This document shows positions 2,942 through 32,000 of a stretch of 32,000 bases of DNA, one piece after another. The first letter of the stretch is position 1. Each line of letters begins with the position of its first letter. Source of the DNA: Vibrio alginolyticus NBRC 15630 = ATCC 17749 (lineage in GTDB: Bacteria; Pseudomonadota; Gammaproteobacteria; Enterobacterales; Vibrionaceae); contig NC_022349.1 of assembly GCF_000354175.2 (NCBI RefSeq), positions 960,001 to 992,000 on the forward strand, in the 5' to 3' direction. The position numbers and the translations under genes are program-made. Below the pieces are notes generated by a model, which worked only from the letters and a program-made list of their open reading frames with translations, ran no database searches and had not been told where the DNA came from.

Positions 2942-3541
2942 GTGTGCCTGAGCCTTCAAAGAATCTAGCATTTTCTGCTGAAACTCTTTTCGCATTATTT
3001 CTCTTTCTTCGTTCTCATGAAGAACCAACAAGAATGTTTGCCGATCACCCCACTCTTCTACTTTACGCTTTGGCAAACCACCTAATTCTCTAAGTTTCTC
3101 AGACATTTGAATGGCTAATAAACCTAAAGCAGCATATTTCGTTGCTCTCGCCTCATAAAATTCCGCAAAATCAGGAGGTGTAGCAGCATAATCACTTACA
3201 GCTGAGATATATGAATTAGCTTCGTGAACCAATTGAGGTAGGTTTAACAAATCGTAGAGTAAATCCTGGGGAAGTATTTTCCAATCAACCTCAAGTTCTA
3301 ACGGAATAAAGCTTGGGGTTTTCGAGTGATAGTAAGTGTATCCATTCTGATCTTCGGTGCCATCATCAGTGACGACTTCACGACAACCGACTATAAACTG
3401 CTCGATACTACTCGTGACAATAATTGCAAGGTAGTACGTTTCTGCTGCTTTTGACTTTTTCGCAGCAACAGACTCTTTGAGGATAGTTAAAAGAAAACCG
3501 ACCAAACCGCCTAAAATGACAACAATTAATTTCTCAAACAC
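2936..3541 (-). CDS. hypothetical membrane-anchored protein
   Basis: 201-aa ORF. GTG start at 3539-3541 with AGAGGA 5 nt upstream. N-terminal TM helix LIVVILGGLVGFLLTIL. No recognisable domain. Confidence 0.6.
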   Translation of the reverse strand: MFEKLIVVILGGLVGFLLTILKESVAAKKSKAAETYYLAIIVTSSIEQFIVGCREVVTDDGTEDQNGYTYYHSKTPSFIPLELEVDWKILPQDLLYDLLNLPQLVHEANSYISAVSDYAATPPDFAEFYEARATKYAALGLLAIQMSEKLRELGGLPKRKVEEWGDRQTFLLVLHENEEREIMRKEFQQKMLDSLKAQAHA

Positions 3542-3564: not shown

Positions 3565-3690
3565 GCATAACGCCCTGCTAAGGGGTGAACAACGCAATAC
3601 CGAAGCCGCTACAAACCACCTTAATCACTAAAATCAACGCATAGTAAAAATGCCACGCGTTGTGAATCCCTCTTGAGCAGTTTGTTAGTT
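3565..3690 (-). repeat. attC_05 (VCR-like, 126 bp)
   Basis: gcataac...gttagtt. Inner stem acaacgc/gcgttgt. Confidence 0.9.
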
Positions 3691-4173
3691 TGCAGACCCA
3701 AAAGGTTGATTTTACGTTGTTTTAAACTTTGCGAACAACAAAATTTATGTGCTTTGATGCACTTAAGTCAGGCGTAGTCTCAAAGCGGCTAGTCAATGAA
3801 ACCACTTGGAACAAGCAACGCCGCAGAAAACGAACTCACTACACCAGAAACTGCTTTTGGAAAGGCAATCTCACAATGCGGACTTTCAACAAAGCCACTG
3901 AAACCACGTGAACTTACCACACCAGAGAAAACGTCCTCGCAGCGAGTAAATCGGCTTTTGTAGCAACAAACTCAACGAGCAGAGTTTCAGCAAAAAAGTT
4001 CAACTTAGTTAACCAAAAAGTCGCCGCACCAAAGAACAAATCAACCGTGAAACGATGCCAATTTTGGACTTTTACCACGCTAATTAACACTGAAATTGAA
4101 CACCAATACGACAATTTCAACTTTGAACTTTTACCACTAGAACTTGCGATATAGCTGCGTTTTTCCTCTTGCA
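3691..4173. other. ORF-less integron cassette, family A copy 1
   Basis: 483 bp between attC_05 and attC_06. It holds only an 86-aa TTG ORF (-) and a 60-aa ORF (+), and neither is conserved in the paralog at 7225..7582. The two copies share an identical 17-mer tgaaaccacttggaaca (3797-3813 / 7330-7346) and the terminal block tagctgcgttttt. Confidence 0.7.
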
Positions 4174-4298
4174 AACTAACGCCCAGTTAAGGGGTGAAGC
4201 ACGCAATACCTAAGCTGCCGCATTGCACTTCAACACCAAAACCACCGCATACTAAAAATGCCACGCGTGCTGAATCCCTCTTGAACTGTTTGTTAGCA
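4174..4298 (-). repeat. attC_06 (VCR-like, 125 bp)
   Basis: aactaac...gttagca. Inner stem agcacgc/gcgtgct. Confidence 0.9.
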
Positions 4299-4721
4299 CG
4301 CTGCCATTAAAGCCTTTGATATACGCCAAGACATTGAAATATAGCACGAAATTTATGGCTTAAAACACCAAAACCAAACGGACAGGTGCCAAACTAAAAA
4401 CAAACATCAAGACGTAAGTTGGCTAGAAGAAAAACATGCTTAACTGCCCTTTTTCACCGCTTTCAAATTAGCAAAGAATACGGGCTTCGAACTTGAACAA
4501 CAGCGACAAAGAAACACTTGTTTTGCCGAAAATTTCTCAGTACCAAAAAAACCACGCCAGAGAAATAGCCCAAAAGTTAGAAACCGTAAACGATAAACTC
4601 AAAGCGAAAACTTCACATCTAGTGCCACCGGAGCGAACCTGAAAGGCACATTTGATCAGGTGTAAAGCGAGGAAAAGAAACCAATAAAAACAGAAACTTT
4701 TAGCCTTTGATGCCAACCCTG
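4299..4721. other. ORF-less integron cassette, family B copy 1
   Basis: 423 bp with no ORF of 60 aa or more. Conserved blocks shared with B2-B5: agaagaaaaac, gttagaaaccgtaaacg, tagtgccaccgga, tgaaaggcac, aggtgtaaa. Hairpin GTGCC-N18-GGCAC at 4622-4649. Confidence 0.75.
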
Positions 4722-4848
4722 TGCTAACGCCGCGTTAAGTAGTGAGCGACGCCTACACCTTACCTAAACAACTACACCGTAAACACAAAACTCAACTTGA
4801 ACTGAGAATGCCACGCGTTGCGAATCTGCCTTAAACGCTTTGTTATAA
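4722..4848 (-). repeat. attC_07 (VCR-like, 127 bp)
   Basis: tgctaac...gttataa. Inner stem gcgacgc/gcgttgc (imperfect). Confidence 0.9.
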
Positions 4849-4866
4849 GCAAAATAGCACCGATGT

Positions 4867-5286
4867 CTAGCTGCTCTTTAATTGCTCAACCTCCGATAAC
4901 ACCCAAGCACTATGATGATGTTCAAAACCTATTTTTGGATAATAACCTTCAGCTTGCGGTGCCGATAATAAAATAACCTTACAGCTTGGAGTTAGTTGCT
5001 TTTTAGTAATCAATATTAAATTTTTTCCGATACCACTAGATTGAACACTTTCATCGACGGCTAGATCAGAAAGGTAGCAACAATAATGAAAGTCAGTCAC
5101 CGAACGTGCAATCCCGATGAGCTGGTTGTTAAACCATGCAGTAACAACTAGATTAGCATTTTCCAACATACCTTGAATTGTAAGGTTGTCATCAAGCGGT
5201 CTACGTACACCAAGTGATGTTTTTTCTAACAATTCAATAAACTGTACCGCTGTAATTGGACAGTTAACTTTATACTCAATTTCCAT
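4867..5286 (-). CDS. GNAT-family N-acetyltransferase
   Basis: ORF track gives 4867..5325. I trimmed the start to ATG 5284-5286 (MEIEYKVN) because the upstream codons enter attC_08. Motif LAVDESVQSSGIGKNLI plus C-terminal YYPKIGF. Confidence 0.85.
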   Translation of the reverse strand: MEIEYKVNCPITAVQFIELLEKTSLGVRRPLDDNLTIQGMLENANLVVTAWFNNQLIGIARSVTDFHYCCYLSDLAVDESVQSSGIGKNLILITKKQLTPSCKVILLSAPQAEGYYPKIGFEHHHSAWVLSEVEQLKSS

Positions 5287-5312
5287 TTGATACCCTTTGA
5301 ATCTGACTTTGC

Positions 5313-5438
5313 TTATAACGCCCAATTAAGGGGTGAGTAACGCAACACCAATGCTACCGAAAACCACCTTAACCACTAAAATTAACGCATAGTAAAAATG
5401 CCACGCGTTACGAATCCCTCTTGAATTGTTTGTTAGTA
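5313..5438 (-). repeat. attC_08 (VCR-like, 126 bp)
   Basis: ttataac...gttagta. Inner stem gtaacgc/gcgttac (compensatory). Confidence 0.9.
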
Positions 5439-5862
5439 CGCTGCCCTTAAAGCCTTTGGCACACACCAAGATATTGAAATATAGCACGAAAATTATGGCT
5501 TAAAACGCTGAAGCCAAACAGACAACTACCAAACTTGAACTCAATTTCAAAACCCAAGCTGGCGAGAAGAAAAACTTGCTTAACTGACCTATTTTCACCG
5601 TTTTCAAATTAGCAAAGGATACGGACTTCGAAACTGAACGGCAGCGCCAAAGAAACTCAGTGTTTGACAAAAATGTTCCAGCATCAAAGAAATCACACCA
5701 AAGAAATAGCCAAAAAGTTAGAAACCGTAAACGGTAAATTCACAGCGAACACTCCGCATATAGTGCCACCGGAAAGATCGTGAAAGGCACAATGTTTCAG
5801 GTGTAAAGCAAAGCAGAGAAACCGGTAAACTCTGAAAATTTTAACTTTTGATGCCAACCCCG
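5439..5862. other. ORF-less integron cassette, family B copy 2
   Basis: 424 bp, alignable end to end with 4299..4721. Substitutions and small indels are scattered and do not follow a 3-nt pattern. No ORF of 60 aa or more. Confidence 0.75.
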
Positions 5863-5988
5863 TACTAACGCCCTGTTAAGGGGTGAGCAACGCAATACCA
5901 AAGCCGCCGCATACCACCTTAATCACTAAAACCAACGCATAGTAAAAATGCCACGCGTTGCGAATCCCTCTTGAACAGTTTGTTATAG
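5863..5988 (-). repeat. attC_09 (VCR-like, 126 bp)
   Basis: tactaac...gttatag. Inner stem gcaacgc/gcgttgc. Confidence 0.9.
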
Positions 5989-6526
5989 CTCACTAGCCTG
6001 TTGCGCCATCATAACTTTAAGTTCCTTTGCTTTATTGTCGAAAGCTTCTTGAGTCTTTATTAATTCATCAAGTTTTTGGCGCTTAAAACTCCTGTTTTCA
6101 CGACAATAATCTAGTACATCATCGCGCAATTTGATCAAGTTTCCGAAGTCATCAAACAACTCAGGGAAGTGTAGCTGCAAAATGGTTTGTAGCTTCTGAA
6201 AGTCACCTTTTTCCTGAAGTCGATTTTCAGTAGATAACTTCATTGCATTTTCCGCAGTGTTTGCGCCTTTATAAACGGGAATAAAAACCAAGCACATACC
6301 CTGCAAATCAATTTCCCACTTTTGAAAAAGTAGATGTAGCTCTTCTAATTTTGTTCGCTTAAATTCGATTTTTTTCAGCTCTAGTGTATTTTTGTGCTCA
6401 AGCTTTGATCTTTGGTGATTAACAAAACTTGTAACTATCACGCCTAGTAGAGTACCAAGAACCCCCCAAACTAGCTGTAATTAAAGGAGTGTAATTTAAC
6501 ACCGTTGACTGTACCTCTGATTCCAC
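5983..6526 (-). pseudogene. membrane-anchored coiled-coil protein gene split by a +1 frameshift in a G6 tract
   Basis: The track ORF 5983..6441 (GTG) lacks an RBS. A GTG at 6524-6526 has AGGAG 6 nt upstream and opens a frame that ends 28 codons later. Removing one G from the GGGGGG run (6462-6467, - strand) fuses the two frames into about 180 aa. The fused protein has a TM helix LITASLGVLGTLLGVIVTSFV that spans the junction. Confidence 0.5.
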
Positions 6527-7096: not shown

Positions 7097-7224
7097 AACT
7101 AACGCCGCATTAAGGGGTGAACAACGCAAACCACCCGGCCTAAGGCATTGTGCCGTAAACACTAAAGCCAATTCAAACCAAAACTGCCAAGCGTTGTGAA
7201 TCCCTCTTGAATGCTTTGTTAGTT
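7097..7224 (-). repeat. attC_11 (VCR-like, 128 bp)
   Basis: aactaac...gttagtt. Inner stem acaacgc/gcgttgt. Confidence 0.9.
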
Positions 7225-7582
7225 GCCAAACCTAAAGCTTTGATTTGATAGTTAGTTGCCGCTTTGCCAACACTGTCTTTGCGTATTTCGGAAAACTCAA
7301 ATCAGGCGCAGTTTCCAAGCGTCTGTCACTGAAACCACTTGGAACATACAACGCCGTAGAAAACGAGCTAACAACACCAAAAAGCGCCTTTGGGCAAACA
7401 ATGTTACAGAGCTAACTTTCAACATATAAATCGATTTCTGAAATAGAGAATACAACAACAAAAGAAACCAACGCACGATTTTACAAACCCAAATAACTAG
7501 AAATTGAAATACGAAAACCGAGCCAAAAACACACGAACATTAACCCTAAACATTCTGCTTTAGCTGCGTTTTTCTCGTTGGC
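7225..7582. other. ORF-less integron cassette, family A copy 2
   Basis: 358 bp with no ORF of 60 aa or more. Blockwise homologous to 3691..4173. Confidence 0.7.
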
Positions 7583-7708
7583 AACTAACGCCCTGTTAAG
7601 GTGTGAGCAACGCAATACCGATGCCGCCGCATATCACCTTAACCACCATACGCAACGCATAGTAAAAGTGCCACGCGTTGCGAATCACTCTTAAACAGTT
7701 TGTTAGCC
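7583..7708 (-). repeat. attC_12 (VCR-like, 126 bp)
   Basis: aactaac...gttagcc. Inner stem gcaacgc/gcgttgc. Confidence 0.9.
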
Positions 7709-8339: not shown

Positions 8340-8466
8340 GGCTAACGCCCAATTAAGGCGTGAGCGACGCCACCAAAGAACTTAAACCATTGCGCTGTAA
8401 ACACAAAAGCCGATTCAAACTAAAAATGCTATGCGTTGCGAATCGCTCTTGAATTGTTTGTTATGT
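8340..8466 (-). repeat. attC_13 (VCR-like, 127 bp)
   Basis: ggctaac...gttatgt. Inner stem gcgacgc/gcgttgc (imperfect). Confidence 0.9.
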
Positions 8467-8810
8467 TTTACCACAAACGACTCACTTTCTTGACAAAGAA
8501 CTGCTGTGCTCAAGAAATTGTTCAACTCACATCACACGAGTCAACCAACCATTATGACAAGTGCAACAAATGCAAAGCGCATAATAATTGAGACCTATCA
8601 TCAAAACCAAAGCGACTTTAAGCAAGATAAATTTTCAGAATAAATCCATAATTTCAATGGAAGCAACCCTGAGGTTTGAAGCTCAAAATCGGTTGAGAAA
8701 TCCAAGAATTTAGGCCACCGATATTGAATTTCTGAAACCATGAAGACAACTTATTAGAGTAACCAAAGAAGTAAACCAAAAACTATTTATTGCTTATAAA
8801 TCAATGTGAA
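8467..8810. other. ORF-less integron cassette, family D copy 1
   Basis: 344 bp with no ORF of 60 aa or more. It shares its first ~55 nt (ttttaccacaa..gactt..ttga.aaagaactgct) and later blocks (aagcgacttt.agc) with 19981..20434. Confidence 0.65.
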
Positions 8811-8936
8811 ACATAACGCCTTGCTAAGGTGTGAGCAACGCAATACCTTAGCCTCCGCATAATACCTTAAACACATAAACCGACACATAGTAAAAATGCC
8901 ACGGGTTGCGAATCACTCTTAAGCAACTTGTTATAC
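8811..8936 (-). repeat. attC_14 (VCR-like, 126 bp)
   Basis: acataac...gttatac. Carries the variant gccacgggttgcg. Confidence 0.9.
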
Positions 8937-9519: not shown

Positions 9520-9559
9520 TTGCGGTTGGTGTACCCCACAAAAAGTAGACAGTACATAA

Positions 9560-10342
9560 CTACATACTTTCGTACTCAACTGGGCTGACCTGCCCCAACG
9601 CTGAGTGTCTTCTTCTGCGATTGTAAAATACCTCGATGTATTCGAAGATGCCCATTCGGGCTTCTTCGACAGTTTGATAGTCTTCTGCGTATATCAGTTC
9701 GACTTTCAGTCGACTGTAGAACGACTCCATCACCGCATTATCCCAGCAGTTACCCTGCCGACTCATGCTCGGTACACCTCCATGCTTACGCATGAAGTCT
9801 TGATATTTGTAGGCTCTGTATTGTACACCACGGTCTGAGTGGATAATGACGCCCTTAGGCGGCTTACGTGACTCAAACGCCATTTTTAGAGCGTTAGTGA
9901 TTAGCTCGACGGTCATCGTTGTCCCAAGCGACCAACCCACAATGCGTCTTGAATGCAAGTCCATCACTGTCGCTAAGAAGAGCCAACGGCTCTTCACCCA
10001 GATATACGTAATGTCCGTAACCCATTTCTGATTTGGCGTCTCAGACTCAAAGTCTCTACGCAGTAAATTGTCGGCAACATTCGTCATAGCAGCCACATAA
10101 TTCACGCAGCAGGCATAGCCTGCTTCGTTGAGCTCTTCGGCTATTCGCACTGAGCCGTAACGTGCCCGATATTGGGCAAAGGTACACATGACGAGCTGTT
10201 CAAAGCGCTCTCGCCGCTTTGAACGCTCACTCGGCGTATGATGGCACCACTTATAATAGCCGCCCCGACTCACTTCTAAGGTGCGGCACATTAAGCTAAT
10301 GGAATACTCACCGACATAGCTTTCGATGAACTCGTACTTCAC
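9560..10342 (-). CDS. IS3-family transposase OrfB (DDE/rve core), internally deleted; expressed as an OrfAB fusion by -1 frameshift
   Basis: DDE-type motifs WVTDITYI, IIHSDRGVQY, NAVMESFYSRLKVE. It lacks 23 aa (DIMKEKGIRARNGKGFKYSKDVA region) that are present in copy 2. Confidence 0.85.
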   Translation of the reverse strand: MKYEFIESYVGEYSISLMCRTLEVSRGGYYKWCHHTPSERSKRRERFEQLVMCTFAQYRARYGSVRIAEELNEAGYACCVNYVAAMTNVADNLLRRDFESETPNQKWVTDITYIWVKSRWLFLATVMDLHSRRIVGWSLGTTMTVELITNALKMAFESRKPPKGVIIHSDRGVQYRAYKYQDFMRKHGGVPSMSRQGNCWDNAVMESFYSRLKVELIYAEDYQTVEEARMGIFEYIEVFYNRRRRHSALGQVSPVEYESM

Positions 10343-10647
10343 TCTTGCTGCTTCGCGAAGTACGCCGAGACCTTTTTTAGGAATTCCATTTCATCTTTGA
10401 GTCGCTTGTTCTCGCGCCTTAGCGCCCGAAGCTCTTCGGACTCTTTCTTCGAGTAATCGACACCGTCTAAGGTGTTAAACTGTTTATCAGATAGGCGTGT
10501 GAACTGGCGCTTCCAGTTTCGGATCTGCTGGGCACTGATGCCCAGCTCCTTGGCAACGGAAACGGCTGTTCGGCCAGGAAGACTGGCCAAGCGGACTGCT
10601 TCTTTGCGGAACTCTTCGGTGTACGCTGGATTACGATGTTTAGCCAT
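10339..10647 (-). CDS. IS3-family transposase OrfA (HTH plus leucine zipper)
   Basis: 102 aa. HTH is VSVAKELGISAQQIRNWKRQF. Coiled coil is LRALRRENKRLKDEMEFLKK. The protein is identical in all three copies. Confidence 0.9.
   Translation of the reverse strand: MAKHRNPAYTEEFRKEAVRLASLPGRTAVSVAKELGISAQQIRNWKRQFTRLSDKQFNTLDGVDYSKKESEELRALRRENKRLKDEMEFLKKVSAYFAKQQE
10372..10378 (-). promoter_or_regulatory. programmed -1 ribosomal frameshift heptamer A AAA AAG (IS copy 1)
   Basis: - strand reads CTA AAA AAG GTC in the orfA frame. A -1 slip continues into the orfB frame (KKGLGVLREAARVKYEF...). This is the classic IS3-family arrangement. Confidence 0.8.
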
Positions 10648-10715
10648 AAATCACCTCTCAATTAGACCCTAGATCTAACTTAGTAAAGTGTCTACTAAAC
10701 GTGGGGTACTCGGCG

Positions 10716-10841
10716 GTATAACGCCCTGTTAAGGGGTGAGCAACGCAATACCAATGCCGCCGCATACCACCTTAATCACTTAAACCAACGCATAGTGAAG
10801 ATGCCACGCGTTGCGAATCCCTCTTGAACAGTTTGTTAACT
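10716..10841 (-). repeat. attC_15 (VCR-like, 126 bp)
   Basis: gtataac...gttaact. Identical to attC_39 from its second base onward. Confidence 0.9.
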
Positions 10842-11182
10842 GAGCGCCTTTCAGTTTTCGCCGATTTTTCAGCCACTTTCGCCAAAGCTCGTTTTGCTAA
10901 TTAATGATTAGCAAAGCTAACTCAAATATGTGTTTAACAAAAAAATTACCGTTGATCTTTAGTTTGAAATGCGTCTCACAACACCATACTTCGGCGATGT
11001 AAGTGCGCCGAACTAATCGCGAACGCCTTATATTATTAGAAGGCTTTATGCCGCCTTTCACATCAGTAAGCTTAAGTACCAAACTGAAATTAGTCGCATT
11101 ACCTCAGCTAAGGAAACCGACCGAACACGCTAAACCTCCGAACCTAGAAACCGTATCAATGTGCTTTCGTATTTTCTGTGCC
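10842..11182. other. ORF-less integron cassette, family C copy 1
   Basis: 341 bp. It holds only two overlapping 61-aa ORFs without RBS. Contains the perfect hairpin tttgctaat-taatg-attagcaaa (10893-10915). Identical to 30345..30685. Confidence 0.7.
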
Positions 11183-11734: not shown

Positions 11735-11805
11735 TTTTATCTTTCTCACTCTGTTTAGAAACCCATTGACACTGGTGTACCCCACAAAAAGTAGACAGTA
11801 CATAA

Positions 11806-12657
11806 CTACATACTTTCGTACTCAACTGGGCTGACGTGCCCCAACGCTGAGTGTCTTCTTCTGCGATTGTAAAATACCTCGATGTATTCGAAGATGCCCA
11901 TTCGGGCTTCTTCGAGGGTTTGGTAGTCTTCTGCGTATATCAGTTCGACTTTCAGTCGACTGTAGAACGACTCCATCACCGCATTATCCCAACAGTTGCC
12001 CTGCCGACTCATGCTCGGTACACCTCCATGCTTGCGCATGAAGTCTTGATATTTATATGCTCTGTATTGTACACCACGGTCCGAGTGGATAATGACGCCT
12101 TTAGGCGACTTACGTGACTCAAACGCCATTTTTAGGGCATTGGTGATGAGCTCGACGGTCATCGTTGTCCCTAACGACCAACCCACAATACGCCTTGAAT
12201 GCAAGTCCATCACTGTCGCTAAGAAGAGCCAACGGCTCTTCACCCAGATATACGTGATGTCCGTAACCCACTTCTGATTTGGCGTCTCAGACTCAAAGTC
12301 TCTTCGCAGTAAATTGTCGGCAACATTCGTCATAGCAGCCACATCCTTGCTGTATTTAAACCCTTTACCATTACGTGCCCTGATACCTTTTTCCTTCATG
12401 ATATCAGCCACATAATTCACGCAGCAGGCATAGCCTGCTTCGTTGAGCTCTTCGGCTATTCGCACTGAGCCGTAACGTGCCCGATATTGGGAAAAGGTAC
12501 ACATGACGAGCTGTTCAAAGCGCTCTCGCCGCTTTGAACGCTCACTCGGCGTATGATGGCACCACTTATAATAGCCGCCCCGACTCACTTCTAAGGTGCG
12601 GCACATTAAGCTAATGGAATACTCACCGACATAGCTTTCGATGAACTCGTACTTCAC
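11806..12657 (-). CDS. IS3-family transposase OrfB (full length, DDE/rve)
   Basis: 283 aa with the same DDE motifs. Includes the segment DIMKEKGIRARNGKGFKYSKDV that is absent from copies 1 and 3. Confidence 0.9.
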   Translation of the reverse strand: MKYEFIESYVGEYSISLMCRTLEVSRGGYYKWCHHTPSERSKRRERFEQLVMCTFSQYRARYGSVRIAEELNEAGYACCVNYVADIMKEKGIRARNGKGFKYSKDVAAMTNVADNLLRRDFESETPNQKWVTDITYIWVKSRWLFLATVMDLHSRRIVGWSLGTTMTVELITNALKMAFESRKSPKGVIIHSDRGVQYRAYKYQDFMRKHGGVPSMSRQGNCWDNAVMESFYSRLKVELIYAEDYQTLEEARMGIFEYIEVFYNRRRRHSALGHVSPVEYESM

Positions 12658-12962
12658 TCTTGCTGCTTCGCGAAGTACGCCGAGACCTTTTTTAGGAATT
12701 CCATTTCATCTTTGAGTCGCTTGTTCTCGCGCCTTAGCGCCCGAAGCTCTTCGGACTCTTTCTTCGAGTAATCGACACCGTCTAAGGTGTTAAACTGTTT
12801 ATCAGATAGGCGTGTGAACTGGCGCTTCCAGTTTCGGATCTGCTGGGCACTGATGCCCAGCTCCTTGGCAACGGAAACGGCTGTTCGGCCAGGAAGACTG
12901 GCCAAGCGGACTGCTTCTTTGCGGAACTCTTCGGTGTACGCTGGATTACGATGTTTAGCCAT
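12654..12962 (-). CDS. IS3-family transposase OrfA
   Basis: 102 aa, identical to copy 1 OrfA. Confidence 0.9.
   Translation of the reverse strand: MAKHRNPAYTEEFRKEAVRLASLPGRTAVSVAKELGISAQQIRNWKRQFTRLSDKQFNTLDGVDYSKKESEELRALRRENKRLKDEMEFLKKVSAYFAKQQE
12687..12693 (-). promoter_or_regulatory. programmed -1 frameshift heptamer A AAA AAG (IS copy 2)
   Basis: Same context as copy 1. Confidence 0.8.
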
Positions 12963-13030
12963 AAATCACCTCTCAATTAGACCCTAGATCTAACTTAGTA
13001 AAGTGTCTACTAAACGTGGGGTACTCGGGA

Positions 13031-13833: not shown

Positions 13834-14078
13834 GCTGTAGCTCCAAAAAACATTTGATTTGAAGACTACCATTTACCTGAAAGTTCTCAACAAAAACAAA
13901 ACCAATAAAAACAGACACTTAAAAAGCCCCATTTTAGCCAAAATAAGGCACCAAAACGGCATTTTAAAGGGGGCTAATTCAAAACAACCGATGCGGCCAG
14001 CTAGAAAAAAGTTTTAGTGAATCTGGCGGGTTTTAGAGAAAGCACTGGTGTACCCCACAAAAAGTAGACAGTACATAA

Positions 14079-14861
14079 CTACATACTTTCGTACTCAACT
14101 GGGCTGACCTGCCCCAACGCTGAGTGTCTTCTTCTGCGATTGTAAAATACCTCGATGTATTCGAAGATGCCCATTCGGGCTTCTTCGACAGTTTGATAGT
14201 CTTCTGCGTATATCAGTTCGACTTTCAGTCGACTGTAGAACGACTCCATCACCGCATTATCCCAGCAGTTACCCTGCCGACTCATGCTCGGTACACCTCC
14301 ATGCTTACGCATGAAGTCTTGATATTTGTAGGCTCTGTATTGTACACCACGGTCTGAGTGGATAATGACGCCCTTAGGCGGCTTACGTGACTCAAACGCC
14401 ATTTTTAGAGCGTTAGTGATTAGCTCGACGGTCATCGTTGTCCCAAGCGACCAACCCACAATGCGTCTTGAATGCAAGTCCATCACTGTCGCTAAGAAGA
14501 GCCAACGGCTCTTCACCCAGATATACGTAATGTCCGTAACCCATTTCTGATTTGGCGTCTCAGACTCAAAGTCTCTACGCAGTAAATTGTCGGCAACATT
14601 CGTCATAGCAGCCACATAATTCACACAGCAGGCATAGCCTGCTTCGTTTAGCTCTTCTGCAATTCGCACAGAGCCGTAACGTGCCCGATATTGGGCAAAG
14701 GTACACATGACGAGCTGTTCAAAGCGCTCTCGCCGCTTTGAACGCTCACTCGGCGCATGATGACGCCACTTGTAGTAACCACCTCGACTCACTTCTAACG
14801 TACGGCACATTAAGCTAATCGAGTACTCGCCTGTATAGCTTTCAATGAACTCGTACTTCAC
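14079..14861 (-). CDS. IS3-family transposase OrfB (internally deleted variant)
   Basis: 260 aa with the same deletion junction NYVA|AMTNV as copy 1. Confidence 0.85.
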   Translation of the reverse strand: MKYEFIESYTGEYSISLMCRTLEVSRGGYYKWRHHAPSERSKRRERFEQLVMCTFAQYRARYGSVRIAEELNEAGYACCVNYVAAMTNVADNLLRRDFESETPNQKWVTDITYIWVKSRWLFLATVMDLHSRRIVGWSLGTTMTVELITNALKMAFESRKPPKGVIIHSDRGVQYRAYKYQDFMRKHGGVPSMSRQGNCWDNAVMESFYSRLKVELIYAEDYQTVEEARMGIFEYIEVFYNRRRRHSALGQVSPVEYESM

Positions 14862-15166
14862 TCTTGCTGCTTCGCGAAGTACGCCGAGACCTTTTTTAGG
14901 AATTCCATTTCATCTTTGAGCCGCTTGTTCTCGCGCCTTAGCGCTCGAAGCTCTTCAGACTCTTTCTTCGAATAATCGACACCGTCTAAAGTGTTAAACT
15001 GTTTATCAGATAGGCGTGTGAACTGGCGCTTCCAGTTCCGGATCTGCTGGGCACTGATGCCCAGCTCCTTAGCAACGGAGACGGCTGTTCGGCCAGGAAG
15101 ACTGGCCAAGCGAACTGCTTCTTTACGGAACTCTTCGGTGTACGCTGGATTACGATGTTTAGCCAT
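14858..15166 (-). CDS. IS3-family transposase OrfA
   Basis: 102 aa. The protein is identical to copies 1 and 2 despite nucleotide differences. Confidence 0.9.
   Translation of the reverse strand: MAKHRNPAYTEEFRKEAVRLASLPGRTAVSVAKELGISAQQIRNWKRQFTRLSDKQFNTLDGVDYSKKESEELRALRRENKRLKDEMEFLKKVSAYFAKQQE
14891..14897 (-). promoter_or_regulatory. programmed -1 frameshift heptamer A AAA AAG (IS copy 3)
   Basis: Same context as copy 1. Confidence 0.8.
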
Positions 15167-15234
15167 AAATCACCTCTCAATTAGACCCTAGATCTAACTT
15201 AGTAAAGTGTCTACTAAACGTGGGGTACTCGGGC

Positions 15235-15806: not shown

Positions 15807-15932
15807 ACATAACGCCCAATTAAGGGGTGAGTAACGCAACACCAATGCCGCCGCAAACCACCTTAATCACTAAAATTAACGCATAGTAAAAATGCCACGC
15901 GTTATGAATCCCTCTTGAATTGTTTGTTAGTA
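15807..15932 (-). repeat. attC_19 (VCR-like, 126 bp)
   Basis: acataac...gttagta. Inner stem taacgc/gcgtta. Confidence 0.9.
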
Positions 15933-16355
15933 CGCTGCCCTTGAAGCCTTGGGCATACCCCAAGATGTTGAAATATAGCACGAAATTTATGGATTAAAAC
16001 ACTGAAACCAAACGGACAACGGCCAAATTGAAAACTAGCTTCAAGACGTAAGTTGGCTAAAAGAAAAACATGCCAAACTGCTCTTTTTCACCGCTTTCAC
16101 ATTAGCAAAGGATACGCTCACCAAACTCAACCGCAGCGACAATGAAGCTACATTTTTGATGCTGAAACCAACAGCATCAAAGAAGCCGCGCCAAAGAAAT
16201 AGCCCAAAAGTTAGAAACCGTAAACGATGAAATCAAAGCAAAAACTTCGCATCTAGTGCCACCGGAGCGAACGTGAAAAGCACATTTGAACAGGTGTAAA
16301 GTTAGGAAAAGAAACCAATAAACACAGAAACTTCTAACCTTTGATACCAATTCAG
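15933..16355. other. ORF-less integron cassette, family B copy 3
   Basis: 423 bp, alignable with B1 and B2. The hairpin arm GGCAC is changed to AGCAC here. Confidence 0.75.
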
Positions 16356-16481
16356 TACTAACGCCCTGTTAAGGTGTGAGCAACGCAATACAAGAGCTGC
16401 CGCAAACCACCTTAAACACCAAACGCAACGCATAGTAAAAATGCCACGCGTTGCGAATCACTCTTAAACAGTTTGTTAACT
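16356..16481 (-). repeat. attC_20 (VCR-like, 126 bp)
   Basis: tactaac...gttaact. Confidence 0.9.
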
Positions 16482-19854: not shown

Positions 19855-19980
19855 CTATAACGCCCTGTTAAGGGGTGAGCAACGCAATTCCGAAGCCGCC
19901 GCAAACCACCTTAAACACTAAAACCAACGCATAGTAAAAATGCCACGCGTTGCGAATCCCTCTTGAACAGTTTGTTATGT
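19855..19980 (-). repeat. attC_25 (VCR-like, 126 bp)
   Basis: ctataac...gttatgt. Confidence 0.9.
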
Positions 19981-20434
19981 TTTACCACAAGTCACTGACT
20001 TTATTGAGAAAGAACTGCTATTTCAAGCTAGTTTTCTGAACCAAACCACAAGGCAAGAACCAACTTGGCCACCAAAAGCGACTAACCCAAAACCAGTAAT
20101 TCCACTTCCCTGCCCAATGAGGCAACCCGACGAAGCTCCAACAAGCGACCTGTCTTTCCAACCAAAGTGCAAAACAATGGCAAATTGCCGAGGCAACTGC
20201 CAAGCCAAAATGCTAATTGGCTAAGAATCCAAAAGCGACTTTGAGCCAGTTAAACTAAAAACCGACCGCCACGACCTGACAATGAAGCAACCCACGAACA
20301 TTGGTATGTTTTACGGGCTGATTGGTTCAAGAACTTAGACCGACAATACTGATTTGCTGAGTCTACTAGGGACGAATTGCCAGAGGGACAAAGAACTAGA
20401 GCCTAAGACCTTTAAGCCTTTGAAATGCAAGTAA
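19981..20434. other. ORF-less integron cassette, family D copy 2
   Basis: 454 bp. It holds only two overlapping 61-aa - strand ORFs without RBS. Shares its 5' and internal blocks with 8467..8810. Confidence 0.65.
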
Positions 20435-20560
20435 ACATAACGCCCTGTTAAGGGGTGAGCAACGCAATACAAAAGCCGCCGCATACCACCTTAACCACTA
20501 AACGCAACGCATATTGAAAATGCCACGCGTTGCGAATCCCTCTTGAACAGTTTGTTATGT
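20435..20560 (-). repeat. attC_26 (VCR-like, 126 bp)
   Basis: acataac...gttatgt. Identical to attC_36. Confidence 0.9.
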
Positions 20561-20568
20561 GCGAACTT

Positions 20569-20841
20569 CTAGCTTGTAGATGACTGCTCAGCAACACTAA
20601 CTTTAGGCTCTTTCTCTGGCGTCGACCATTTGATGATTGCTCTAAGGTTCATTGAGAAAAAGATGATATTTGCAATTATCATTGCCACACTGCCAGTAAG
20701 ATAACCAACTGCTACCCAACTAGTGTTACCGCACATCATTAAGATGAAACCGATTTTGTTCTTATTTCCAATTTGCCAAATTGCAAGAAACGTAAGTACC
20801 ATTGCAACCCAGTCGATTCCATAGTACTGAAAATATTCCAT
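20569..20841 (-). CDS. small 3-TM membrane protein (PnuC/SemiSWEET-sized), copy 1
   Basis: ORF track gives 20569..20856. I trimmed the start to ATG 20839-20841 (MEYFQYYGIDW) with GGAGGA upstream, giving 90 aa. Three TM helices and an acidic/Ser-rich tail. Confidence 0.65.
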   Translation of the reverse strand: MEYFQYYGIDWVAMVLTFLAIWQIGNKNKIGFILMMCGNTSWVAVGYLTGSVAMIIANIIFFSMNLRAIIKWSTPEKEPKVSVAEQSSTS

Positions 20842-25785: not shown

Positions 25786-25911
25786 GCCTAACGCCTTGCT
25801 AAGGTGTGAGTAACGCAATACAAAAGCTACCGCACAGCGCCTTAATCACATAAGCCACCGCAAAGTAAAAATGCCACGCGTTACGAATCACTCTTAAGCA
25901 ATTTGTTAGTA
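25786..25911 (-). repeat. attC_32 (VCR-like, 126 bp)
   Basis: gcctaac...gttagta. Near-identical to attC_41. Confidence 0.9.
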
Positions 25912-26332
25912 CATGCGCTACTTCTATTTATGCGCTCCAAGATATTGAAAACTGAGATGATATGAAAGGCTTTGAACACTGAAGTGAGACGGGCAGCTAC
26001 AAAACTTTACCCCGATTGAAAGACGAAAGTTGGCTAGAAGAAAAACGCACTGAACTGCCCTACTTTCACTTGCTTCAAATTAGAAAAGGATTCTTTCCTC
26101 GTACTTCAACCGCCACAACAAAAGTAATCAAGGTTCTCTCAAAAGCCACCACGAAAATGAAGAAGCACCAAAGAAATAGGCTAAGAGTTAGAAGCCGTAA
26201 ACGATGAAATCAAAGCGAACACTTCGCATATAGTGCCACCGGAAAGAACGTGAAAGGCACTAACTGAAAGGTGTAAATACGAGCGCCAAAACAGATAAAC
26301 ACCAAAACTTATGACCTTTGATGTCAAACCCG
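25912..26332. other. ORF-less integron cassette, family B copy 4 (divergent subfamily)
   Basis: 421 bp. It shares the B blocks and an extended hairpin TAGTGCC-N18-GGCACTA (26231-26262). The 63-aa + ORF (26016..26207) is not conserved in B1-B3. Confidence 0.7.
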
Positions 26333-26460
26333 TACTAACGCCGCATTAAGGTGTGAGCAACGCTACCACGAGACCAAACCATACCACCGTAAACACAAAA
26401 CCCAACGATGGAATGAAAAATGCCACGCGTTGCGAATCACTCTTAAATGCTTTGTTATGC
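26333..26460 (-). repeat. attC_33 (VCR-like, 128 bp)
   Basis: tactaac...gttatgc. Confidence 0.9.
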
Positions 26461-28563: not shown

Positions 28564-28689
28564 ACATAACGCCCTGTTAAGGGGTGAGCAACGCAATACA
28601 AAAGCCGCCGCATACCACCTTAACCACTAAACGCAACGCATATTGAAAATGCCACGCGTTGCGAATCCCTCTTGAACAGTTTGTTATGT
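28564..28689 (-). repeat. attC_36 (VCR-like, 126 bp)
   Basis: acataac...gttatgt. Identical to attC_26. Confidence 0.9.
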
Positions 28690-28697
28690 GCGAACTT

Positions 28698-28970
28698 CTA
28701 GCTTGTAGATGACTGCTCAGCAACACTAACTTTAGGCTCTTTCTCTGGCGTCGACCATTTGATGATTGCTCTAAGGTTCATTGAGAAAAAGATGATATTT
28801 GCAATTATCATTGCCACACTGCCAGTAAGATAACCAACTGCTACCCAACTAGTGTTACCGCACATCATTAAGATGAAACCGATTTTGTTCTTATTTCCAA
28901 TTTGCCAAATTGCAAGAAACGTAAGTACCATTGCAACCCAGTCGATTCCATAGTACTGAAAATATTCCAT
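28698..28970 (-). CDS. small 3-TM membrane protein, copy 2 (identical to 20569..20841)
   Basis: ORF track gives 28698..29012 and runs into attC_37. I trimmed the start to the ATG at 28968-28970. The nucleotide sequence is identical to copy 1. Confidence 0.65.
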   Translation of the reverse strand: MEYFQYYGIDWVAMVLTFLAIWQIGNKNKIGFILMMCGNTSWVAVGYLTGSVAMIIANIIFFSMNLRAIIKWSTPEKEPKVSVAEQSSTS

Positions 28971-30218: not shown

Positions 30219-30344
30219 TTATAACGCCCTGTTAAGGGGTGAGCAACGCAATACCAATGCCGCCGCATACCACCTTAATCACTTAAACCAACGCATAGTG
30301 AAGATGCCACGCGTTGCGAATCCCTCTTGAACAGTTTGTTAACT
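30219..30344 (-). repeat. attC_39 (VCR-like, 126 bp)
   Basis: ttataac...gttaact. Identical to attC_15 except for the first base. Confidence 0.9.
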
Positions 30345-30685
30345 GAGCGCCTTTCAGTTTTCGCCGATTTTTCAGCCACTTTCGCCAAAGCTCGTTTTGC
30401 TAATTAATGATTAGCAAAGCTAACTCAAATATGTGTTTAACAAAAAAATTACCGTTGATCTTTAGTTTGAAATGCGTCTCACAACACCATACTTCGGCGA
30501 TGTAAGTGCGCCGAACTAATCGCGAACGCCTTATATTATTAGAAGGCTTTATGCCGCCTTTCACATCAGTAAGCTTAAGTACCAAACTGAAATTAGTCGC
30601 ATTACCTCAGCTAAGGAAACCGACCGAACACGCTAAACCTCCGAACCTAGAAACCGTATCAATGTGCTTTCGTATTTTCTGTGCC
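30345..30685. other. ORF-less integron cassette, family C copy 2
   Basis: Identical to 10842..11182. Confidence 0.7.
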
Positions 30686-31519: not shown

Positions 31520-31646
31520 TTATAACGCCTTGCTAAGGTGTGAGTAACGCAATACAAAAGCTACCGCACAGCGCCTTAATCACCATAAGCCACCGCAAAG
31601 TAAAAATGCCACGCGTTACGAATCACTCTTAAGCAATTTGTTAGTA
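31520..31646 (-). repeat. attC_41 (VCR-like, 127 bp)
   Basis: ttataac...gttagta. Near-identical to attC_32, with a 1-nt indel. Confidence 0.9.
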
Positions 31647-32000
31647 CATGCGCTACTTCTATTTATGCGCTCCAAGATATTGAAAAGTGGCATGATATGA
31701 AAGACTTTGAACACTGAAGTGAGACGGGCAGCTACAAAACTTAAACTCGGTTAAGAGACGAGAGTTAGCTAGAAGAAAAACGTAATGAACTGCCCTACTT
31801 TCACTGGTTTCAAATTAGAAAAGGATTTTTTCCTCGTACTTCAACAGCCACACCAAAAATAATCATGGTTCTCTCAAAAGCCACCACAAAAGTGAAGAAG
31901 CACCAAAGAAATAGGCTAAGAGTTAGAAACCGTAAACGGTGAAATCAAAGCGAACACTCCGCATATAGTGCCACCGGAAAGAACGTGAAAGGCACTAACT
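31647..32000. other. ORF-less integron cassette, family B copy 5 (truncated by window end)
   Basis: Collinear with 25912..26265, with scattered substitutions. Ends within the conserved tagtgccaccggaaagaacgtgaaaggcacta hairpin. Confidence 0.7.

What the first reader, a model, noticed from the sequence alone, without database searches (positions are those of the whole stretch)
4299..5862. Five-member family of ~420-bp ORF-less cassettes (family B): candidate structured RNA or DNA element spread as an integron cassette
Copies lie at 4299-4721, 5439-5862, 15933-16355, 25912-26332 and 31647-32000 (truncated). Together they take more than 2 kb of the window. None has a conserved ORF. Differences between copies are scattered point changes and 1-2-nt indels with no codon periodicity, and the only ORF of 60 aa or more (26016..26207) exists in one copy only. 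Sharply conserved islands persist in all copies: agaagaaaaac, c(a/c)a(a/g)agaaatag, gttagaa(a/g)ccgtaaacg, tagtgccaccgga, tgaaa(g/a)gcac and aggtgtaaa. The two islands GTGCC and GGCAC form a hairpin with an 18-nt loop in every copy (for example 4622-4649), extended to a 7-bp stem TAGTGCC/GGCACTA in B4 and B5. In B3 the arm GGCAC becomes AGCAC. That change keeps pairing only as G:U if the minus (cassette-sense) strand is the RNA. Island-like conservation without coding capacity, in a unit mobilised by IntI, suggests a functional non-coding product rather than junk.
Basis: seen in the sequence. Interest (0 to 1): 0.8.

Follow-up and report, generated by a model that had tools for sequence, protein, structure and literature searches.

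The report
Conserved gene-less Vibrio integron cassette family
The five repeats are real copies of a widespread protein-less integron cassette found only in Vibrio, a kind of element known since 2006; there is no evidence that it makes a folded RNA, and its function is still unknown, most likely a regulatory role or a selfish one.

Summary
Five copies of a ~425-nt cassette cargo, each followed by its own attC, lie at the stated coordinates in a Vibrio-type superintegron whose cassettes read on the minus strand. All the listed sequence islands occur only in these copies.

The family is large. I collected 142 distinct copies from at least 25 Vibrio species genomes, marine metagenomes and some Vibrio plasmids. 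They were always in cassette context and never in the phage records searched.

The family is non-coding:
- There is no codon periodicity.
- Every frame is broken by stops in many copies.
- No intact longer homologue exists among 5.8 billion proteins.

The structured-RNA reading is not supported:
- Rfam gave no match, even at E ≤ 10.
- Folding energies equal those of shuffled sequence.
- The structure conservation index is at most 0.36.
- No Watson-Crick covariation appears in 142 sequences.
- The proposed hairpin shows no compensatory change, and its G:U variants disagree about which strand would be the RNA.

Conserved, paralogous, Vibrio-restricted non-coding cassettes were described by Boucher et al. 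(2006). Blanco et al. (2024) found that most gene-less Vibrio cassettes they tested act as sense-strand promoters, but this family was not in their set.

Uneven conservation (most of the cargo about as conserved as the attC; a central 75 nt much more variable) argues for constraint on the sequence itself. My best guess is a cis-regulatory (promoter-type) cassette. A selfish passenger or an unstructured RNA remain live rivals.

The parts
4299..4726 (-). B1 cargo (B1-type subfamily)
   Evidence: Alignment; nhmmer hit 4725-4299, E 1.7e-116.
4175..4298 (-). attC belonging to B1
   Evidence: VCR-like repeat families D2/D3; sequence printed.
5439..5867 (-). B2 cargo (B1-type subfamily)
   Evidence: E 1.1e-122.
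5316..5438 (-). attC belonging to B2
   Evidence: D2/D3 copies 5316-5376 and 5359-5438.
15933..16360 (-). B3 cargo (B1-type subfamily; hairpin arm variant AGCAC)
15810..15932 (-). attC belonging to B3
25912..26337 (-). B4 cargo (B4-type subfamily; 97% identical to a V. jasicida copy)
25789..25911 (-). attC belonging to B4
31647..32000 (-). B5 cargo, 5' end cut by the window edge (93% identical to B4)
   Evidence: D13.
31523..31646 (-). attC belonging to B5 (first 61 nt identical to B4's attC)
   Evidence: D3: 31523-31583 is 100% identical to 25789-25849.
4556..4667 (.). Most conserved core of B1 (TTTACACC ... GTGCC-N18-GGCACTA ... CGTTTACGGnTTCTAAC ... CTATTTCT). Equivalent cores lie at about 5697-5808, 16190-16301, 26167-26278 and 31902-32000.
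   Evidence: Invariant columns; conservation masks; motif positions. An independent sample ascertained on a different anchor still keeps the 3' motif.
5466..5479 (-). Invariant block TTTCAATATCTTGG about 35 nt upstream of the cassette's own attC. It holds the only family-wide conserved -10-like TAnnnT (TATCTT, sense strand). Equivalents lie at 4326-4339, 15960-15973, 25937-25950 and 31672-31685. B1 (TGTCTT) and B3 (CATCTT) deviate.
   Evidence: B1/B3 deviations; PWM score about 5 bits, which is weak.

Best explanation
Family B is a gene-less (non-coding) integron cassette. It has a ~425-nt cargo and its own attC, is mobilised by the integron integrase, and circulates among Vibrio superintegrons as several old sub-lineages.

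The cargo is constrained at the level of the nucleotide sequence, not as a protein and not as a folded RNA. The most likely role, by analogy with the gene-less Vibrio cassettes that have been tested, is cis-regulatory. The cassette would supply weak internal transcription initiation on the sense strand, reading through its attC into whatever cassette lies downstream (a 'promoter cassette').

Shown here:
- Cassette anatomy.
- Non-coding nature.
- Lack of conserved RNA structure.
- Wide distribution restricted to Vibrio.
- Uneven conservation along the cargo.

Inferred only:
- The promoter function, and which bases carry it. The sole family-wide conserved -10-like element is TATCTT, inside the invariant TTTCAATATCTTGG near the 3' end of the cargo.
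- The role of the very conserved ~110-nt 5' core. This is not explained by the promoter model and stays unknown.
For: Cassette and family:
- Five attC-bounded copies in the window.
- 66 exact core matches in 57 loci, all Vibrio, from 25 species-level genomes.
- 87 further full copies in 80 metagenome loci found with a different anchor.
- Full copies sit unannotated between cassette genes on Vibrio 'plasmid' records.

Non-coding:
- No 3-nt periodicity, and a synonymous fraction of 0.22-0.26 in all six frames.
- Second codon positions are as variable as third positions in the one mostly open frame.
- The open antisense frame switches between subfamilies.
- The longest antisense ORF finds only 12 short (59-90 aa) Vibrio hypothetical proteins among 5.8e9 sequences, none with a Pfam domain.

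Constraint:
- Among pairs under 90% identical, mean pairwise identity is 0.77 (5' part), 0.83 (core; 0.78 without the columns used for ascertainment), 0.74 (3' part) and 0.76 (own attC). The central 75 nt is at 0.57.
- Natural variants lack the central block (L135, L125).

Old lineages:
- 37 of 52 copies in multi-copy genomes have their closest relative in another species.

Literature:
- Boucher 2006 (PMC1382264) described exactly this class and proposed promoters, RNA or selfishness.
- Blanco 2024 (PMC11014356) found sense-strand promoter activity in most of the cassettes tested (25 of 30), with lacZ control fragments negative.
- Michael & Labbate 2010 detected expression of non-coding cassettes in V. 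rotiferianus DAT722.

Candidate element:
- The only TAnnnT conserved at 93% or more across the family is the sense-strand TATCTT.
Against: - No canonical sigma-70 promoter was found in B1 or B2 by the consensus scan.
- The best PWM scores (7.5 bits sense, 6.5 antisense) are no better than those in coding cassettes of the same window (7.2).
- The -35 region upstream of TATCTT is not conserved, and B1 and B3 carry mutations in the hexamer.
- A promoter needs about 40 nt. It does not explain conservation of about 350 nt, and least of all the 110-nt 5' core.
- This family was not among the 29 gene-less cassettes tested by Blanco et al.: its core motifs are absent from their supplement. The analogy is therefore indirect.
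- Blanco et al. themselves state that these promoters cannot be predicted in silico.
Confidence: 0.4

Rival explanations
1. Selfish or passenger cassette. The cargo has no host function. The family is abundant because the cassette excises and reinserts efficiently and is exchanged between vibrios. Apparent conservation would come from relatively recent spread, gene conversion between paralogues, or cargo features that favour recombination.
For: - Multi-copy in many arrays: 10 copies in V. diabolicus, 3 in tandem in L042.
- Restricted to Vibrio arrays with VCR-like attC.
- Neighbouring cassettes are essentially random.
- The most recurrent cassette families in the fetched arrays are all gene-less.
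- Boucher 2006 lists this as one of two options.
Against: - Conservation is strongly uneven within one mobile unit (0.57 central against 0.74-0.83 elsewhere). Recent spread alone does not give that pattern.
- Copies within an array are usually deep sub-lineages, not recent duplicates or homogenised copies.
- The idea that the skewed cargo keeps the recombinogenic bottom strand unstructured failed. Family B is only marginally less structured than coding cargo (-0.082 against -0.088 kcal/mol per nt), and the other gene-less families are more structured.
Confidence: 0.25
2. Unstructured regulatory RNA. A transcript from one strand of the conserved core acts by base pairing, either as a trans-acting sRNA or as an antisense RNA reading into the upstream attC and cassette. 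It would not need a conserved fold.
For: - Blocks conserved at sequence level without structure are what seed regions look like.
- The best positionally conserved antisense -10 candidate is TATAGT at A2 column 113 (6.5 bits).
- The A-rich antisense strand is almost structure-free.
- There is precedent for cassette-borne sRNA in Xanthomonas (sRNA-Xcc1; review PMC8876359) and for antisense promoters in gene-less cassettes (Blanco 2024).
Against: - No intrinsic terminator in the cargo on either strand. The only terminator-like hits in 4100-6100 lie in attC sites or in the coding cassette between B1 and B2.
- The TATAGT element is lost in the B1-type subfamily, which has TCTAGT.
- No target is known and no transcript data exist.
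Confidence: 0.2
3. Structured non-coding RNA or structured DNA element. The GTGCC/GGCAC hairpin and other islands would be parts of a conserved fold.
For: - The 5-bp stem with an 18-nt loop is present in most copies; 80% of cells are paired over the 7-bp version.
- It is the only helix RNAalifold recovers consistently in windows.
Against: - No compensatory pair in the hairpin, and its G:U variants disagree on strand (11 favour the plus strand, 2 the minus strand).
- SCI at most 0.36.
- MFE z-scores between -0.8 and +0.8.
- No Watson-Crick-consistent covariation in 142 sequences.
- No Rfam hit at E <= 10.
Confidence: 0.05
4. Protein-coding after all: a small (about 50 aa) hydrophobic peptide on the sense strand, or a decayed relic of a gene on the A-rich antisense strand.
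For: - One sense frame is stop-free across the 5' module in 112 of 142 copies.
- Antisense translations look protein-like near ...KEIAxKLETVNxxxKAxTxHxVPPERT* and share a stop codon.
Against: - 30 of 142 copies have stops in the sense frame.
- No ATG start, and 1-nt indels between subfamilies near the putative start.
- No codon-position bias.
- Antisense frames switch between subfamilies and contain conserved stops.
- No intact homologue in 5.8e9 proteins.
Confidence: 0.05

Closest known systems
Conserved paralogous non-coding cassettes of Vibrio integron arrays (Boucher et al. 2006, BMC Evol Biol 6:3, PMC1382264)
   Same: - No ORF and no protein-database match.
- No codon-like substitution pattern.
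- Similar to homologues over the whole cassette length.
- Multi-copy within arrays.
- Homologues found only in vibrios.
All were tested here and met.
   Different: I could not check whether family B is one of the specific families they counted, for example DAT722 cassettes 26/46/48 or the 45-copy V. vulnificus family. The species-representative V. vulnificus, V. cholerae and V. fischeri genomes gave no exact core match.
Promoter cassettes: gene-less cassettes of Vibrionaceae superintegrons (Blanco et al. 2024, NAR 52:2961, PMC11014356)
   Same: - Gene-less by their definition (no ORF over 210 bp).
- Size range: cargo about 425 nt plus an attC of about 124 nt.
- Vibrio sedentary chromosomal integron context.
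   Different: Family B motifs are absent from their 30 tested sequences, so promoter activity is untested for this family. In-silico promoter signals are no better than in coding cassettes.
sRNA-Xcc1, an integron-cassette-encoded trans-acting sRNA of Xanthomonas campestris (Chen et al. 2011, cited in PMC8876359)
   Same: An ORF-less cassette whose product would be an RNA.
   Different: No sequence similarity or Rfam match, no terminator, no transcript evidence, and a different genus and attC type.

Membership tests
Integron gene cassette | Cargo bounded 3' by its own attC (R''...R' boxes) and 5' by the R' remnant of the preceding attC, in the same orientation as the array | tested here: met
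   About 125-nt VCR-like attC directly after each copy, TTAG... start after GCGTTA. Same arrangement in 58 homologous copies.
Non-coding / gene-less Vibrio cassette (Boucher 2006; Blanco 2024) | No ORF above the size limit (150 bp in Boucher, 210 bp in Blanco) | tested here: inconclusive
   The longest ORFs are 53-63 aa, or 159-189 bp. This is under Blanco's limit and over Boucher's. Boucher's second criterion (next row) decides.
Non-coding / gene-less Vibrio cassette (Boucher 2006; Blanco 2024) | No protein-database match, and no synonymous-site pattern in an alignment of homologues | tested here: met
   no periodicity; only 12 short Vibrio ORF calls, no longer homologue, no Pfam domain.
Non-coding / gene-less Vibrio cassette (Boucher 2006; Blanco 2024) | Close full-length homologues in other vibrios, paralogues in the same array, none outside Vibrio | tested here: met
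   The metagenome copies carry no taxonomy.
Promoter cassette (Blanco 2024) | Reporter-measured promoter activity and mapped transcription start sites | not testable with these tools
   In-silico proxies are weak and inconclusive.
Structured RNA family (Rfam-type) | Match to a curated covariance model | tested here: not met
   0 hits at gathering threshold over the whole window, and 0 hits at E <= 10 on 4150-6000.
Structured RNA family (Rfam-type) | Conserved secondary structure supported by covariation and thermodynamic stability | tested here: not met
Cassette-borne sRNA (sRNA-Xcc1-like) | Own promoter and intrinsic terminator delimiting a discrete transcript | tested here: not met
   No terminator-like site inside the cargo. 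The presence of a transcript is not testable.
Pseudogene relic | Intact coding homologue elsewhere | tested here: not met
   The longest open frame among the 61 genome-derived copies is 120 codons, in one copy only.
Degenerate attC / fused cassette | Significant similarity of the cargo to attC sites | tested here: not met
   Local alignment z-scores up to 3.4, mostly below 1, in both orientations.

The most novel reading that the evidence does not exclude
The ~110-nt core (TTTACACC...GTGCC-N18-GGCACTA...CGTTTACGGnTTCTAAC...) is a sequence-specific functional module that is not a promoter. It could be a binding platform for a host or integron protein, or an unstructured regulatory RNA. Selection would maintain it in several old lineages per array across dozens of Vibrio species. 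The strong T-over-A skew of the sense strand, shared by unrelated gene-less cassette families, would then reflect a common strand-specific role of 'empty' cassettes in superintegron biology.
Probability: 0.2. Interest if true: 0.7.

Novelty: new member of a known kind. Interest (0 to 1): 0.35.

Why it matters
Gene-less cassettes make up 6-49% of Vibrio superintegron arrays (PMC1382264). Their role bears on how very long, supposedly silent arrays are expressed and maintained.

This family is a well-delimited test case that has not been tested experimentally:
- 142 distinct copies.
- At least 25 species.
- Two or more deep sub-lineages.
- A dispensable central block.
- A near-invariant core.

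If it proves to be a promoter cassette, it extends the findings of Blanco et al. to the Harveyi-clade vibrios. If the core does something else, that would be a new functional class of cassette. As it stands, the finding restates a known puzzle and does not reveal a new kind of element.

Tried and rejected
1. Structured RNA. Rejected on Rfam, RNAalifold, windowed SCI and column-shuffle z-scores, the hairpin pair count, mutual information with APC correction on 142 copies and MFE z-scores.

2. Protein coding, either strand. Rejected.

3. Cargo core as a degenerate attC or fused cassettes. No significant similarity.

4. Sigma-54 promoter at TGGCAC. By reading the sequence, the GC of the -12 element is 2 nt too close, and it is absent in the B1 type. 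Rejected.

5. Canonical sigma-70 promoter. The consensus scan found none in B1 or B2, and PWM scores were not above the coding controls. Left open only as a weak TATCTT candidate.

6. Fixed partnership with a neighbouring cassette. Neighbours are diverse. One other gene-less family is upstream in 7 of 54 cases, and family B itself is often in tandem.

7. 'Unstructured bottom strand helps attC folding'. Not supported.

8. Phage origin or phage target. No phage record matched. One IMG/VR contig carries two copies, probably an array, and was not followed up.

9. The L033 chimera as evidence for a 5'-leader function. It is a deletion fusing the first 111 nt of a family B cassette to a 5'-truncated gene for a TRADD-N-associated membrane protein, whose intact homologues are about 237 aa. 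Uninformative.

10. Identifying the source strain through the plasmid collection. Only attC matches were found.
Full report
CONTEXT. The window is a Vibrio-type superintegron array. A repeat of about 125-139 nt occurs 30-40 times. Its reverse complement reads like a VCR-type attC (TAACAAAC...GCGTTA), and most ORFs lie on the minus strand. Cassettes are therefore in sense on the minus strand.

OBSERVATION. The five claimed copies are real.
- They align over about 425 nt with 80% mean column identity.
- A profile built from the family finds exactly these five places in the window.
- Each copy starts right after the GCGTTA of the preceding attC and is followed by its own attC.
- The copies form two deep subfamilies. 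B1, B2 and B3 are 81-83% identical to their nearest partner. B4 and B5 are 93% identical to each other, and B4 is only about 70% identical to B1-B3.
It overlooks a TTG-initiated minus-strand frame of 54-59 codons at the same position in B1-B3.

HOW BIG IS THE FAMILY.
- One scan of species-representative genomes with an exact core pattern returned 57 loci with 66 matches. All were Vibrio, from 25 species-level genomes, including harveyi, rotiferianus, owensii, jasicida, diabolicus (10 copies), proteolyticus, nereis, splendidus, nigripulchritudo, atypicus, hepatarius and ouci.
- A profile search of those loci found about 10 further copies that lack the exact pattern yet keep the core almost unchanged.
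- A metagenome scan anchored on a different part of the core gave 80 more loci and 87 full-length copies. The 17-nt motif that was not used for ascertainment (CGTTTACGGnTTCTAAC) is exact in 56 of 82 distinct copies and within one or two changes in nearly all of the remainder tabulated.
- Full copies also lie on Vibrio records in the plasmid collection, unannotated, between typical cassette genes.
- No phage record matches.
- In total 142 distinct copies were aligned. Among the 61 genome-derived copies, pairwise identity runs from 62% to 100% with a median of 71%.

NOT CODING.
- Across the 61 genome-derived copies, column variability shows no period of three. The fraction of single-nucleotide codon differences that are synonymous is 0.22-0.26 in all six frames. 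Every frame carries hundreds of stop codons over the set.
- The one sense frame that is mostly open across the 5' module is interrupted in 30 of 142 copies. Its second codon positions vary as much as its third. It has no ATG, and the subfamilies differ by 1-nt indels near its putative start.
- On the antisense strand the open frame switches between subfamilies (...KEIAxKLETVN...PPERT* against ...QRNRLRVRSRKR*) and contains conserved stops.
- The longest antisense ORF (100 aa) was searched against 5.8 billion proteins. It finds only 12 short (59-90 aa) Vibrio 'hypothetical proteins' with no Pfam domain and no longer intact relative.
The family is not a pseudogene relic.

NOT A CONSERVED FOLD.
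- Rfam gives nothing at gathering thresholds for the window, and nothing at E <= 10 for the B1-B2 region.
- Whole-cargo MFEs equal those of dinucleotide shuffles: z = -0.03 and -0.80 for B4 sense and antisense, and +0.78 and +0.16 for B1.
- RNAalifold on 61 copies gives -14 kcal/mol with a covariation term of -2.6. The few 'both sides changed' pairs are differences between the two subfamilies, and many cells are broken.
- In 120-nt windows on 21 representatives under 90% identical, the structure conservation index is 0-0.36 on the sense strand and 0-0.16 on the antisense strand.
- Mutual information with APC correction on 142 copies puts all top pairs inside the hypervariable central block. 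They reflect linkage of sequence variants, not Watson-Crick-consistent covariation.
The outer two pairs are absent in about half of the copies. Eleven copies carry GTACC, which breaks the stem on the minus strand but gives G:U on the plus strand. Only two copies (one of them B3) have the opposite pattern. The 3' arm was part of my search pattern, but the copies found without that pattern also keep it.

WHAT THE SEQUENCE DOES SHOW.
- Conservation is uneven within one mobile unit. For pairs under 90% identical overall, mean identity is 0.77 in the first 62 columns and 0.83 in the core (0.78 after removing the columns my pattern fixed). It is 0.74 in the 3' part and 0.76 in the cassette's own attC, but only 0.57 in a central block of about 75 nt.
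- Natural variants lack the central block altogether (L135, L125).
- Most of the cargo is thus about as constrained as a functional recombination site.
- Copies in one array are usually not recent duplicates. 37 of 52 copies in multi-copy genomes have their nearest relative in another species. B4 is 97% identical to a V. jasicida copy but 70% identical to B1-B3.
- Neighbouring cassettes are diverse.
- The sense strand is strikingly T-rich, with an AT skew of -0.30 to -0.35. Most coding cassettes in the window lie between -0.05 and +0.13.
- In the fetched arrays, the other cassette families that recur across species are also gene-less and T-rich on the sense strand (-0.19 to -0.38). Most other cassettes recur little or not at all.
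- The cargo is not related to attC or to the other gene-less families.

MECHANISM.
- Canonical promoters were not found in B1 or B2.
- A sigma-70 PWM gives best scores (7.5 bits sense, 6.5 antisense) no higher than in coding cassettes (7.2).
- The only TAnnnT conserved in at least 93% of 142 copies is the sense-strand TATCTT. It lies inside the invariant block TTTCAATATCTTGG, about 35 nt before the cassette's own attC, and points towards the downstream cassette. Its -35 region is not conserved, and B1 and B3 carry changes in the hexamer.
- Blanco et al. (PMC11014356) showed sense-strand promoter activity in most of the Vibrio cassettes they tested (25 of 30), with negative lacZ controls. They state that such promoters cannot be found in silico. 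Family B motifs are absent from their sequences.
- Michael and Labbate detected expression of non-coding cassettes in V. rotiferianus DAT722.
- On this basis I rank a cis-regulatory, promoter-type role first, at about 0.4. A promoter does not account for the conserved 110-nt core.
- Rivals are a selfish passenger cassette (0.25), an unstructured regulatory or antisense RNA (0.2), a structured RNA (0.05) and a small protein or gene relic (0.05).
- The idea that a skewed, poorly self-complementary cargo helps the bottom-strand attC to fold was tested and not supported.

COMPARISON WITH WHAT IS KNOWN.
- Boucher et al. 2006 (PMC1382264) already reported the defining properties of this class. Vibrio arrays contain non-coding cassettes that are paralogous within arrays and over 80% identical between species across their whole length. 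They are absent outside vibrios and are not pseudogenes.
- Those authors proposed the same alternatives: selfish elements, promoters or regulatory RNAs.
- Family B meets each of these features when tested here.
- It is therefore a (possibly already counted) member of a known kind whose function is still unsettled. It is not a new class.

VERDICT.
- 'Functional non-coding element spread as a cassette' is plausible.
- 'Structured RNA' is not supported.
- Novelty is low to moderate, and interest is 0.35.

Noticed in passing
window 3687-4179, 7221-7588, 8463-8816, 19977-20440 (and families): Several other cassettes in the window lack a convincing ORF and share the T-rich sense strand (AT skew -0.19 to -0.27). 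In the fetched arrays, the four next most recurrent cassette families after family B are all gene-less with sense AT skew of -0.19 to -0.38. Most coding cassettes lie near zero. I found no published mention of this strand skew.
   Followed up: partly
window 3723-3997 (minus strand); L013, L024, L026, L034, L036, L037, L052: A second gene-less family (about 494 nt; 17 copies in 15 loci) lies immediately upstream of a family B copy in 7 of 54 cases. In the window it lies immediately downstream of B1. It may simply reflect the abundance of both families.
   Followed up: partly
window 9527-10700, 11773-13000, 14046-15200: Three copies (91-100% identical) of an IS3-family insertion sequence. OrfA is 102 aa (HTH_Tnp_1) and OrfB is 260-283 aa (rve integrase core). 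They are inserted in the cassette array (repeat families D5-D7; Pfam).
   Followed up: partly
window 10717-11016 = 30220-30519; 20435-20734 = 28564-28863: Two pairs of 100% identical stretches of at least 300 nt (attC plus the start of a cassette). These indicate recent duplication of two other cassettes within the array (D11 and D12).
   Followed up: no
L059 (V. owensii pVOWZ4, NZ_CP033147.1) 3001-3169, and more than 10 similar 70-110-kb plasmids of shrimp V. parahaemolyticus / V. owensii: A fragment made of the last ~170 nt of family B cargo plus the first ~35 nt of its attC (83% identity). It sits outside any array, next to an IS200/IS605 tnpA, on plasmids from diseased shrimp that look pVA1-like by size and host. 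It appears to be a cassette remnant.
   Followed up: partly
L033 6950-7590 (V. proteolyticus NBRC 13287): A chimeric cassette. The first 111 nt of family B are fused in frame to a 5'-truncated gene for a TRADD-N-associated 2-TM protein (PF20712). Intact homologues are about 237 aa. It is probably a deletion across a cassette boundary.
   Followed up: yes
L135 5989-6357 and L125 1-328 (metagenome contigs): Family B variants that precisely lack the hypervariable central block (profile positions 196-252). This shows that the central block is dispensable.
   Followed up: no
family B consensus (ungapped positions 162-172, 176-186, 212-222 of the consensus; for example window plus strand around 5695-5712): The 11-mer TTCTTTGGTG(C/T) occurs three times in and next to the variable central region (CACCAAAGAA on the plus strand). 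The 8-mer TTTGGTGT is also conserved in two other gene-less families. This may just reflect base composition.
   Followed up: no
L140 (IMGVR_UViG_2511231129_000002) 3072-3096 and 11061-11085: One contig in the viral collection carries two family B cores 8 kb apart. It is probably a cassette array classified as viral and was not examined.
   Followed up: no
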